Notes: a model not told the origin generated them from the sequence alone. Positions 28,837 to 29,500 are shown, counted from the first letter of the stretch. The stretch is DNA of 40,222 bases from a virus (IMGVR_UViG_2778261638_000008), one strand, 5' to 3'. Numbers and translations: made by a program.

Positions 28837-29361
28837 TCATCTGGCAGGTTGTAACGGTGCAGGAATTTTGCCACTGACTTCTATATTTCGGGGAAATTTA
28901 TATTCAGCGGAGCATTTATGACACTTGAGAATTTTATAAGCGGCATTAGAAGTATGGTATTGAAGTATAGACTTCATACCCGACTCATAGCATGTAGTAC
29001 AAAGATAATGAGGCTTGAACTCAGGATCGTCAGTAGGCTTCAGTACATAGACCACCGTATTGGTAATCGGGTGGTACATTTCATAGTTCATTTTCTCACT
29101 ATCCCAATCCTGTTTCTTTTCCAGAAGGGATTCGAGTTCAACAATGCGCTGTTTAGCTTCGTTCAAAAGCTCCGTTAGTGCGAATTGTCCAGTACGCGCA
29201 TCAATTAGTTTATCAAGTAGATCGATAGTTTTACTTTTAACATTGTAATCCACCTGCAACGCATTAACTTCTTTTGCTAAATCAACAGCACCTTTCAAAG
29301 CACCACCAGCACTAGTGGCCGCCTCAGTTATACGCCGTACAAGTCCTTTTTCTTCAGACAT
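28837..29361 (-). CDS. Hypothetical 174-aa protein: N-terminal coiled coil plus C-terminal CxxC...CxxC zinc-ribbon; immunity-region moron
   Basis: AT-rich; opposite strand to cI and the early-left operon; C terminus has C-x2-C ... C-x2-C (LCTTCYESG ... CHKCSAEY). Confidence 0.6.
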   Translation of the reverse strand: MSEEKGLVRRITEAATSAGGALKGAVDLAKEVNALQVDYNVKSKTIDLLDKLIDARTGQFALTELLNEAKQRIVELESLLEKKQDWDSEKMNYEMYHPITNTVVYVLKPTDDPEFKPHYLCTTCYESGMKSILQYHTSNAAYKILKCHKCSAEYKFPRNIEVSGKIPAPLQPAR

Positions 29362-29500
29362 CTTAATTCTCTCTAAAACTATAGGGGTAAAGAGATATTA
29401 GCCGAATTCTCGCTGTAGGGGTACAGAGAGAGCCATCTCGTCTGACGTGGTTAAAAGCAGGCATTCGCTGACATCCATGTAATTGCTGTGTGTAGCCTTT

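What the first reader, a model, noticed from the sequence alone, without database searches (positions are those of the whole stretch)
28837..29430. Immunity-region moron: coiled-coil/zinc-ribbon protein encoded antisense to the early-left leader, with direct repeats in its promoter region
Downstream of cI, where lambda carries rexAB, an AT-rich minus-strand gene encodes a 174-aa protein with an N-terminal coiled coil and C-terminal C-x2-C...C-x2-C zinc ribbon. It lies between the pL-like promoter and the first early-left genes, so induced early transcription would run antisense through it. Its upstream region has two 16-bp direct repeats (CTATAGGGGTAAAGAG at 29379-29394 and CTGTAGGGGTACAGAG at 29413-29428, 13 of 16 identical), likely regulator binding sites. 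This position is a classic hotspot for prophage-encoded exclusion/defence genes.
Basis: partly seen in the sequence, partly recalled or inferred. Interest (0 to 1): 0.65.

Follow-up and report, generated by a model that had tools for sequence, protein, structure and literature searches.

The report
Rip1-family phage-defence gene in sieB slot
The gene is a new allele of the recently described Rip1 pore-forming anti-phage protein. It sits in an E. coli prophage behind the same promoter and antisense-RNA control module that phages lambda and P22 use for their sieB exclusion gene, so it is a real defence gene of a known kind.

Summary
A 174-aa minus-strand ORF (28837-29361, 40.8% GC against 50% for the window) encodes a helical N-terminal half and a C-terminal CxxC...CxxC domain. 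It lies between a CI-operator-bearing pL-like promoter and the first early-left genes. Two direct repeats lie upstream; they are 14/16 identical, not 13/16.

The protein is a clear homologue of Rip1 ("ring interacting pore 1") of phage HK446 (PDB 9oox: phmmer E=8e-45, 47.5% identity, Foldseek E=3e-11). Rip1 is a prophage-encoded single-protein abortive-infection system that assembles a membrane pore around the portal or small-terminase rings of an infecting phage (Patel et al. 2026).

The 180 nt upstream are homologous to the sieB promoter / sas antisense-RNA region of P22 and lambda. The two repeats are the two CUGUAGGGGU motifs of sas: one lies over the -35 region and one at the mRNA 5' end. 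They are probably not protein operators.

The correct lambda analogue is sieB, not rexAB. The same module precedes about 15 unrelated cargo groups in phage contigs. A sub-threshold RprA-like 3' module follows on the + strand.

Verdict: new member of a known kind, with a possibly under-appreciated portable regulatory cassette.

The parts
28837..29361 (-). rip1-family gene, 174 aa: N-terminal amphipathic helices, a long helix 39-92, and a C-terminal beta domain with CxxC...CxxC
   Evidence: ORF. PDB 9oox Rip1 E=8.4e-45. Foldseek against 9oox E=2.6e-11. phrog_1244 E=2e-43. AlphaFold2 model. Invariant Cys.
29367..29374 (-). Shine-Dalgarno-like AGAGAGAA, 5-7 nt before the ATG
   Evidence: Read directly from the sequence.
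29379..29388 (-). Proximal repeat ACCCCTATAG. Predicted 5' end of the rip1 mRNA (transcription start ~29388), by homology with the mapped P22 sieB RNA start
   Evidence: Alignment A3. P22 annotation of the promoter and RNA start.
29395..29400 (-). -10 hexamer TAATAT of the PsieB-type promoter
   Evidence: Aligns with the P22 -10 TAAACT and with TATAAT in other cassettes.
29413..29422 (-). Distal repeat ACCCCTACAG, over the -35 region. Lies 34 nt from the proximal copy
29357..29483 (+). Region homologous to the P22 sas antisense RNA: anti-AUG, two CU(A/G)UAGGGGU motifs, a hairpin and a conserved element
   Evidence: The P22A-sas RNA-seq sequence matches alignments A3/A4.
29407..29432 (+). Hairpin of ~10 bp with a GGGG loop that carries the distal repeat
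   Evidence: Folds in all 18 variants. More stable as antisense RNA in 17 of 18. 4 of 5 inner pairs show two-sided changes.
29432..29462 (+). Conserved ~33-nt element (consensus AACCACCUCGCCUGACGUGGUUAAAAGCAGGC) with two interlocking helices
   Evidence: Found in >120 viral contigs. The three substitutions in the window are all G.U-compatible on the + strand.
29478..29527 (+). RprA-like 3' module: AAUUGCUGUGUGUAGCCUUUGCCCG, then an intrinsic terminator (stem 29501-29505/29516-29520, U-run 29521-29526)
   Evidence: Rfam RF00034, 44.9 bits (below the gathering score of 70), E=1.2e-4. Only the 3' half aligns with high posterior probability.
28503..28545 (+). pL-like promoter TTGACA-17-TATAAA (28503-28531), with two operator-like 20-mers (28508-28527 and 28526-28545)
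   Evidence: Read directly from the sequence. The 20-mer is shared with the cI-cro intergenic region at 27689-27708 (D1).
28568..28579 (+). boxA-like GCTCTTTAACAA in the pL leader
   Evidence: The only exact copy in the window.
28725..28742 (+). GC-rich hairpin CGCCCC/GGGGCG followed by a T-rich stretch. Possible leader terminator
   Evidence: Read directly from the sequence. It marks the boundary where the two rip1 alleles diverge.
27744..28418 (+). CI-type repressor (HTH + S24 peptidase)
   Evidence: Pfam.
29565..29735 (+). First early-left ORF (56 aa, phrog_11981), followed by the DUF2800 nuclease, the Enc34-type ssDNA-binding protein and the DNA polymerase

Best explanation
**What it is.** The ORF encodes a Rip1-family protein. 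Rip1 is a single-protein, prophage-encoded abortive-infection system.

**In the lysogen (inferred).** The gene is transcribed on the minus strand from a sieB-type promoter: -10 TAATAT at 29400-29395 and a predicted start near 29388.

**How the protein acts (inferred from the characterised homologue).** When another phage infects and makes its ring-shaped portal or small-terminase oligomers, the C-terminal Cys4 domain binds the ring. The N-terminal amphipathic helices of about 12 subunits are then brought together into a membrane pore. The cell dies before progeny mature.

**How it is switched off (inferred).** The gene lies antisense inside the early-left operon, in the slot that lambda and P22 use for sieB. 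When CI repression is lifted, pL transcription reads through it on the + strand. The resulting RNA contains a homologue of the P22 sas antisense RNA. It covers the rip1 ribosome-binding site and start codon and ends in an RprA-like terminator module. This should shut off new Rip1 synthesis during the phage's own lytic growth.

**The two direct repeats.** They are parts of this module. The distal copy sits in the -35 region and in the 5' arm and loop of the antisense-RNA hairpin. The proximal copy is the 5' end of the mRNA.

**Shown here.**
- Family membership by sequence and predicted fold.
- Homology of the upstream region to the P22/lambda sieB promoter and sas region.
- The gene arrangement.
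- Conservation of the hairpin with compensatory changes.

**Inferred, not shown.**
- Expression in lysogens.
- Pore formation and protection.
- Antisense shut-off.
- The seed role of the repeat.
For: **Protein.**
- phmmer against PDB 9oox_L, 'ring interacting pore 1 (Rip1)': E=8.4e-45 over residues 3-159.
- 9oox is HK446 Rip1 bound to the T6 small terminase. Foldseek of the AlphaFold2 model (pLDDT 79) gives E=2.6e-11, probability 1.0, 46% identity.
- tblastn gives 47.5% identity to HK446 gp37 and ~30% to the orf25-type genes of Pseudomonas phages such as JBD30, DMS3 and D3112.
- Rip1 biology is taken from a review of Patel et al. 2026.
- The family has 2690 clusters (at 50% identity) with E<=1e-3. 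The Cys4 motif is present in 141/144.

**Slot.**
- HK446 rip1 is convergent with N and antisense in the pL operon, exactly where lambda and P22 have sieB.
- Homologues in Pantoea, Edwardsiella and Providencia also sit beside cI, opposite to the early-left genes.

**Promoter and antisense RNA.**
- The upstream 180 nt hit the annotated P22 sieB promoter and RNA start, and the region upstream of lambda sieB.
- The published P22 sas RNA sequence spans the anti-AUG, both repeats and the conserved element.
- The hairpin is conserved with two-sided changes and is favoured on the + strand.
- The two copies match within each locus (10.9 of 12) but not between cassette types (4.2 of 12).

**pL.** The operator-like 20-mers are shared with the cI-cro region. 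No other + strand promoter was found before 29565.
Against: - No expression, protection or pore data exist for this allele. Its identity to the characterised protein is below 50%, so its trigger specificity is unknown.
- The primary Rip1 paper could not be read; only a review, a meeting report and the PDB title were available.
- Two hairpins (28725-28742 and 29501-29526) lie in the pL path. No N-like antiterminator gene was recognised, so read-through across rip1 is inferred, not shown.
- In P22, sas works together with Esc, an internal in-frame product. No conserved internal start exists in rip1 (Met91 and Met95 are not conserved), so the P22 logic cannot be copied in full.
- The window's copy of the conserved element has three substitutions. 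All three are wobble-compatible, however.
- Rip1 protein already present at induction would not be removed by an antisense RNA.
Confidence: 0.72

Rival explanations
1. The two direct repeats are DNA operators for a regulatory protein (CI, the Rip1 protein itself, or a host factor) that controls the rip1 promoter.
For: The two copies flank the -10 at about -35 and +1, 34 bp apart (about three helical turns). This is a classical repressor geometry. The two copies co-vary between cassette types, as a pair of sites for one protein would.
Against: - The same repeat (ACCCCTACAG) precedes unrelated cargo (SieB and Rip1) in phages of different immunity: lambda, P22, HK446 and this prophage. A CI-type or cargo-encoded regulator is therefore unlikely.
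- The cassettes carry no regulator gene.
- The CI operator-like 20-mer of this phage is a different sequence.
- The repeat occurs nowhere else in the window.
- The hairpin around the distal copy shows G.U pairs that work only in RNA of the + strand.
Confidence: 0.12
2. The repeats are a relic of a 34-bp tandem duplication that created the internal TATAAT promoter. They are kept alike by gene conversion or recent spread. They have promoter function only, with no RNA-RNA seed role.
For: - All four repeat types share the 33-34 nt spacing and the same layout.
- Short cassette types without the duplication exist. They look like the ancestral form: conserved element, a hairpin holding the Shine-Dalgarno sequence, then the ATG.
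- P22 transcription starts at the first base of the proximal copy.
Against: Between types the repeats have diverged almost completely, while within a locus they stay 10-12 of 12 identical. This calls for selection or continuing conversion. The P22 sas RNA is known to act by pairing with this very segment.
Confidence: 0.3
3. The protein is Rip1-like in fold but serves the phage's own lytic cycle, for example lysis timing or packaging control through its own small terminase or portal. It would not be a defence against other phages.
For: Rip1 binds packaging rings, and the prophage makes such rings itself. In Pseudomonas phages the gene sits between the terminase genes.
Against: - The gene is oriented against both the early and the late operons and has its own sieB-type promoter.
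- The two alleles are only 44% identical, while the resident portal-terminase region is 98.8% identical. The allele therefore does not track the phage's own rings.
- The low GC and sharp allele boundaries indicate an exchangeable accessory gene.
- The characterised homologues act in defence.
Confidence: 0.07

Closest known systems
Rip1 (ring interacting pore 1) of Escherichia phage HK446 (PDB 9oox) and of Pseudomonas aeruginosa prophages (Patel et al., Nature 2026)
   Same: - Same family: E=8e-45 and 47.5% identity over ~160 aa.
- Same predicted architecture: N-terminal amphipathic helices, a long helix and a C-terminal Cys4 domain.
- A single gene carried by a prophage.
- In HK446 it also lies antisense in the early-left operon behind the same upstream module.
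   Different: - A different allele with more than 50% of residues changed and an extra 14-residue C-terminal tail. Its trigger range is unknown.
- The host phage is a SEN34-like myovirus-type prophage with its own DNA polymerase and no recognisable N gene, not a lambdoid phage.
- In Pseudomonas phages the gene lies between the terminase genes rather than in the immunity region.
SieB / Esc / sas superinfection-exclusion module of phages P22 and lambda (Ranade & Poteete 1993)
   Same: - Same slot (antisense within the pL operon).
- Homologous promoter region with the same two ACCCCTACAG repeats.
- Homologous antisense-RNA region, including the hairpin and the conserved 33-nt element.
- An abortive-infection type of cargo.
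   Different: - The cargo protein is unrelated: Rip1, not the SieB membrane protein.
- No conserved internal Esc-like start.
- Here the antisense strand continues into an RprA-like terminator module that lambda and P22 lack.
Lambda RexAB
   Same: A prophage-expressed abortive-infection function next to cI that acts on the membrane.
   Different: RexAB is a two-gene system co-transcribed with cI and located between cI and pL. This gene is a single ORF beyond pL, on the opposite strand, with its own promoter, and is unrelated in sequence.
RprA, the Hfq-dependent small RNA of enterobacteria (Rfam RF00034)
   Same: The + strand at 29478-29527 matches the 3' half of the RprA consensus almost base for base (AAUUGCUGUGUGUAG-CUUUGCCC). 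A terminator hairpin and U-run follow.
   Different: The score is below the family's gathering threshold (44.9 against 70 bits). The 5' half does not match, and no promoter of its own was found. It is probably a shared 3' module, not an rprA gene.

Membership tests
Rip1 family (pore-forming anti-phage defence) | Full-length sequence similarity to an experimentally characterised Rip1 | tested here: met
   phmmer E=8.4e-45, residues 3-159 against 3-160 of 9oox_L. tblastn gives 47.5% identity to HK446 gp37.
Rip1 family (pore-forming anti-phage defence) | Fold matches the solved Rip1 structure | tested here: met
   AlphaFold2 model with pLDDT 79. Foldseek against 9oox_M: E=2.6e-11, probability 1.0, TM 0.62 normalised to the target. 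The next best hit has E=0.69.
Rip1 family (pore-forming anti-phage defence) | N-terminal amphipathic helical part plus a C-terminal ring-binding domain | tested here: met
   Helices 2-16, 21-34 and 39-92, then beta strands 93-157. Hydrophobic moment is 0.43-0.49 for residues 1-24. The architecture is as described in the review.
Rip1 family (pore-forming anti-phage defence) | Single gene carried by a prophage, with no partner genes | tested here: met
   A solitary minus-strand ORF between the pL-like promoter and the early genes of an E. coli prophage. The same holds in four other hosts.
Rip1 family (pore-forming anti-phage defence) | Assembles as a ~12-mer around portal or small-terminase rings and permeabilises the membrane; protects against phage | not testable with these tools
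   Requires plaque assays, dye-uptake assays and co-purification or cryo-EM.
sieB-type promoter / sas antisense-RNA module (P22, lambda) | Sequence homology to the mapped P22 sieB promoter, RNA start and sas RNA | tested here: met
   blastn hits under the features 'sieB: promoter | sieB RNA start site'. Alignment A3. The sas sequence from RNA-seq covers the same columns.
sieB-type promoter / sas antisense-RNA module (P22, lambda) | Cargo gene lies antisense inside the CI-repressed early-left operon | tested here: met
   pL-like promoter with CI operator-like repeats at 28503-28545 (+), cargo on the (-) strand, early genes from 29565 (+).
sieB-type promoter / sas antisense-RNA module (P22, lambda) | Structured antisense RNA (hairpin carrying the distal repeat) | tested here: met
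   The hairpin is present in 18/18 variants, with mean energy -9.55 (antisense) against -6.47 kcal/mol (sense). 94% of cells are paired against 23-41% in the slid controls, and 4 pairs show two-sided changes.
sieB-type promoter / sas antisense-RNA module (P22, lambda) | Internal in-frame start giving an Esc-like inhibitor of the full-length protein | tested here: not met
   The internal Met91, Met95 and Met129 are not conserved among 14 homologues.
sieB-type promoter / sas antisense-RNA module (P22, lambda) | Antisense RNA is actually made during lytic growth and blocks translation of the cargo | not testable with these tools
   Needs strand-specific RNA-seq or a Northern blot after induction, plus translational fusions.
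Lambda RexAB-type exclusion | Two-gene operon co-transcribed with cI from pRM, located between cI and pL | tested here: not met
   A single ORF on the opposite strand to cI, downstream of the pL-like promoter. No similarity to Rex proteins in Pfam or PADLOC.
Zinc-ribbon-like Cys4 domain | Four conserved Cys in two CxxC knuckles | tested here: met
   C121, C124, C147 and C150 are invariant. The motif is present in 141/144 representatives. Metal binding itself was not tested.
RprA sRNA (RF00034) | Score at or above the Rfam gathering threshold over the whole model | tested here: not met
   44.9 bits against 70. Only model positions ~62-108 align with confidence.

The most novel reading that the evidence does not exclude
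The sieB promoter / sas module may be a portable, cargo-independent 'ON in the lysogen, OFF in lytic growth' switch that lambdoid and SEN34-like phages use for many different defence genes.
- Its duplicated 10-12-nt motif would be an RNA-RNA recognition seed. The antisense hairpin displays the complement of the mRNA's 5' end, which would explain why the two copies co-vary between cassette types.
- In this phage group the antisense RNA has additionally acquired an RprA-like Hfq-type 3' module.
- The ~15 unrelated small proteins found behind the same element would then be a ready-made catalogue of candidate anti-phage genes.
Probability: 0.35. Interest if true: 0.65.

Novelty: new member of a known kind. 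Interest (0 to 1): 0.42.

Why it matters
- **Annotation.** The result assigns a function to a gene annotated as 'hypothetical' in well-studied pathogenic E. coli (ETEC H10407, O103:H2 12009, IAI1 and about 150 other complete genomes). The gene is a Rip1-type pore-forming abortive-infection protein. This is relevant to phage therapy and to typing of phage susceptibility.
- **Link between two systems.** It connects the newly described Rip1 system to the old sieB/sas regulatory paradigm. That suggests how a prophage may avoid killing itself with a sensor of packaging rings.
- **A search handle.** A short conserved DNA element marks one defence slot in hundreds of phage genomes and can be used to find its varied cargo.

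Tried and rejected
- **Family libraries.** Pfam, NCBIfam and PADLOC gave no significant family for the protein. PHROGs gave only a family of unknown function.
- **Primary paper.** Patel et al. 2026 is not held in the library. Rip1 biology therefore rests on a review, a meeting report and the PDB entry.
- **Genome scan.** The degenerate-pattern scan of genome contigs returned only 3 loci.
- **First cargo-finding script.** It missed most ORFs and was redone.
- **pL leader as a structured RNA.** The leader (28538-28760) folds no better than shuffled sequences (z=0.52), has no Rfam hit, and is shared only with close relatives. It was dropped as a put-like or riboswitch-like RNA.
- **Own promoter for a + strand small RNA.** None met the consensus scan or my reading of 29362-29500.
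- **Esc-like internal start in rip1.** Not conserved.
- **Domain-biased divergence between alleles.** Not seen: 43-58% identity in all segments.
- **blastn of the RprA-like module against E. coli genomes.** It did not reach the chromosomal rprA locus at E<=1e-3. The RprA link therefore rests on the Rfam model alone.
- **mir-22 and anti-hemB Rfam hits.** Taken as chance.

Full report
**The observation.**
- The window has a 174-aa ORF at 28837-29361 on the minus strand. RefSeq annotates the same ORF as a hypothetical protein in ETEC H10407.
- Its GC content is 40.8%, against 50% for the window.
- Its four cysteines form C121-x2-C124 and C147-x2-C150. They are invariant in homologues.
- AlphaFold2 predicts two short N-terminal helices, a 54-residue helix and a small beta domain.
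- The two 16-mers are at the stated coordinates, 34 nt apart. They are 14/16 identical, not 13/16.

**The surroundings.**
- An S24/HTH CI-type repressor lies at 27744-28418 (+) and a Cro-like HTH protein at 27402-27602 (-).
- After a terminator for cI there is a near-consensus promoter, TTGACA-17-TATAAA, at 28503-28531 (+). It overlaps two copies of a 20-mer that also lies in the cI-cro intergenic region (family D1). I take this to be the pL/oL equivalent.
- Downstream come the following:
  - a boxA-like GCTCTTTAACAA;
  - a GC hairpin at 28725-28742;
  - the ORF, on the opposite strand;
  - a + strand terminator at 29501-29526;
  - the + strand early genes (a 56-aa ORF, a 300-aa ORF, a DUF2800 nuclease, an Enc34-type ssDNA-binding protein, a DNA polymerase).
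- No other + strand promoter was found before 29565. This is inferred from the arrangement, not shown.

**What the protein is.**
- Pfam, NCBIfam and PADLOC are silent. PHROGs gives only phrog_1244, of unknown function.
- A search of PDB sequences gives one strong hit: 9oox chain L, 'ring interacting pore 1 (Rip1)', E=8.4e-45 over nearly the whole length.
- Foldseek of the model against the PDB returns the same entry at E=2.6e-11. The entry title is 'Escherichia phage HK446 Rip1 in complex with the Enterobacteria phage T6 small terminase'. The next hit has E=0.69.
- tblastn gives 47.5% identity to HK446 gp37. It gives ~30% to a gene of Pseudomonas transposable phages such as JBD30, DMS3 and D3112.
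- A review of Patel et al. (Nature 2026) describes Rip1 as follows:
  - It is a prophage protein that is harmless alone.
  - Escape mutations map to the portal (Pseudomonas phages) or the small terminase (E. coli phages).
  - Twelve Rip1 subunits surround an 11-mer terminase ring.
  - The N-terminal amphipathic part forms a pore.
  - The result is premature membrane failure.
- The family is large: 2690 clusters at 50% identity with E<=1e-3. 141 of 144 full-length representatives have the CxxC...CxxC motif.
- I could not read the primary paper.

**Which slot it occupies.**
- In HK446 the gene lies between N and an anti-restriction (ral-like) gene. It is convergent with N and antisense within the pL operon. 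This is exactly where lambda and P22 carry sieB.
- Homologues in a Pantoea lambdoid prophage (abutting N), an Edwardsiella prophage and a Providencia relative of the present phage are also next to cI and opposed to the early-left genes.
- The lambda analogue is therefore sieB, not rexAB.

**A hotspot with exchangeable alleles.**
- The prophage occurs in 152 of 5426 complete E. coli genomes. Only 26 have this allele.
- Other prophages with the same CI protein carry a 189-aa allele that is 44% identical.
- The flanks are ~98% identical, with sharp boundaries at the leader hairpin and at the start codon.
- The resident portal-terminase region is 98.8% identical between the two phage groups. The rip1 allele therefore does not follow the phage's own rings.

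**The repeats and the upstream region.**
- The 180 nt upstream of the ORF match 131 phage records. In P22 the match lies under the annotated 'sieB promoter' and 'sieB RNA start site'. In lambda it lies directly before sieB.
- In the alignment the two repeats (ACCCCTACAG on the gene's strand) are invariant in lambda, P22, HK446, the Pantoea phage and the 606R2 allele.
- By homology with P22 the layout is as follows:
  - the -10 is TAATAT (29400-29395);
  - transcription should start at the A of the proximal repeat (~29388);
  - the distal repeat covers the -35 region.
- A 2026 RNA-seq study gives the sequence of the P22 sas antisense RNA. It starts opposite the sieB start codon and runs through both repeats (as CUGUAGGGGU). 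It then passes through a hairpin that carries the distal one, and through a conserved element AACCAC...GUGGUUAAAAGACAGGC.
- The window's + strand 29357-29483 is the homologue. In P22, sas pairs with the sieB mRNA and switches translation from SieB to Esc, which lets P22 escape its own exclusion.

**Evidence that the + strand RNA is the constrained molecule.**
- An 18-mer of the conserved element occurs in more than 120 viral contigs.
- Among 18 distinct two-repeat variants, the hairpin around the distal copy is always present (9-11 bp, usually with a GGGG loop). It is more stable as + strand RNA in 17 of 18 (mean -9.55 against -6.47 kcal/mol). It uses G.U pairs that would be C.A mismatches on the other strand.
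- With a fixed structure, 94% of cells pair, against 23-41% in the slid controls. Four of the five inner pairs show two-sided changes.
- The window differs from the consensus of the conserved element at three positions. All three become G.U pairs in the two proposed interlocking helices. Those helices are otherwise invariant, partly because of how the sequences were retrieved, so they remain unproven.

**Why two copies.**
- Four sequence-unrelated repeat types occur: ACCCCTACAG, TCCCCAACRAC, TTCCACAGTCAA and CCCCAAYGCAA. All have 33-34 nt spacing and a TATAAT-like hexamer between the copies.
- Within a locus the copies agree at 10.9 of 12 positions. Between types they agree at 4.2 of 12.
- The same type serves SieB and Rip1 in phages of different immunity. 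This argues against a dedicated DNA-binding regulator.
- My preferred reading is that the antisense hairpin presents the complement of the mRNA's 5' end as a pairing seed. This is inference, with about 0.3 confidence. The main rival is a promoter-creating duplication kept alike by gene conversion.
- Short cassette variants lack the duplication. They have a hairpin that includes the Shine-Dalgarno sequence.

**Cargo census.** Behind the conserved element, 118 loci carry about 15 groups of unrelated small proteins. They include:
- SieB;
- Rip1-like proteins (also with type B repeats);
- a 95-aa membrane protein;
- 66-70-aa zinc-ribbon proteins;
- others.

Some of the shortest ORFs may be miscalled.

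**An unexpected addition.**
- A permissive Rfam search matches + strand 29417-29530 to RprA (44.9 bits, below the gathering score of 70; E=1.2e-4).
- Only the 3' half is convincing: AAUUGCUGUGUGUAGCCUUUGCCCG plus the terminator.
- The antisense transcript thus appears to end in an RprA-like 3' module.
- Among phage records this module is confined to the 606R2 group.

**Verdict.**
- The finding is real and the defence reading is right. It is explained by membership in the Rip1 family and by a sieB/sas-type control module, both known.
- Still untested for this allele are expression, protection, trigger specificity, read-through from pL (no N-like gene was recognised) and the antisense shut-off.
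- Novelty: new member of a known kind. The interest lies mostly in the portable regulatory cassette and its cargo.

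Noticed in passing
window 29478-29527 (+): A sub-threshold Rfam hit to the RprA small RNA (44.9 bits against a gathering score of 70). The 3' half (AAUUGCUGUGUGUAGCCUUUGCCCG plus terminator) is almost identical to the RprA consensus. It lies just 3' of the sas-like element. The module is present in 178 of 5426 E. coli genomes, with 26 copies on plasmids.
   Followed up: partly
IMG/VR loci L010-L129 (e.g. 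L013, L015, L028, L037, L041, L066): The conserved element CCTGCTTTTAACCACGTCAGGCGAGGTGGT precedes about 15 unrelated small cargo ORFs. There are four co-varying repeat types with 33-34 nt spacing. Three short types have no duplication; in them a hairpin encloses the Shine-Dalgarno sequence.
   Followed up: partly
window 28538-28760 (+): The pL leader carries an rrn-type boxA (GCTCTTTAACAA, 28568-28579), three GGTAAGC repeats (28596-28684) and a GC hairpin (28725-28742). No N-like gene follows. The fold is no better than shuffled sequence, and the leader is shared only with close relatives and weakly with Yersinia phages YeP4-6.
   Followed up: partly
window 32554-33084 (-): A second antisense, AT-rich (36.5% GC) ORF of 176 aa with an N-terminal hydrophobic segment. 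It lies between the ssDNA-binding protein and DNA polymerase genes. It has no hit in Pfam, PHROGs, NCBIfam or PADLOC. In ETEC H10407 and 606R2 the same place holds an unrelated 209-aa ORF, so this is a second variable cargo slot.
   Followed up: partly
window 633-831 (-): A full-length Rfam hit to IS009 (RF02111, 190 bits, above the gathering score), in what should be the tail-gene part of the prophage.
   Followed up: no
L134 (E. coli JNEC-KY208) 1261-2489: An IS2 element is inserted between cI and rip1. It replaces the pL leader region, so this is a natural variant in which early-left antisense transcription across rip1 is probably cut off.
   Followed up: no
P0009, and the SieB ORFs in L025 and L131: Database ORFs begin with 'MYPYSEKS...'. 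This is the distal repeat and promoter region translated in frame, upstream of the mapped P22 RNA start. It probably reflects over-extended gene calls. In the window this frame is closed by a TAG in the proximal repeat.
   Followed up: no
L002 (ETEC H10407) 24832-26906 and 29735-31129: In H10407 the prophage DNA polymerase gene is frameshifted and the SNF2 gene has an internal stop. That copy of the prophage is therefore probably defective, although rip1 is intact.
   Followed up: no
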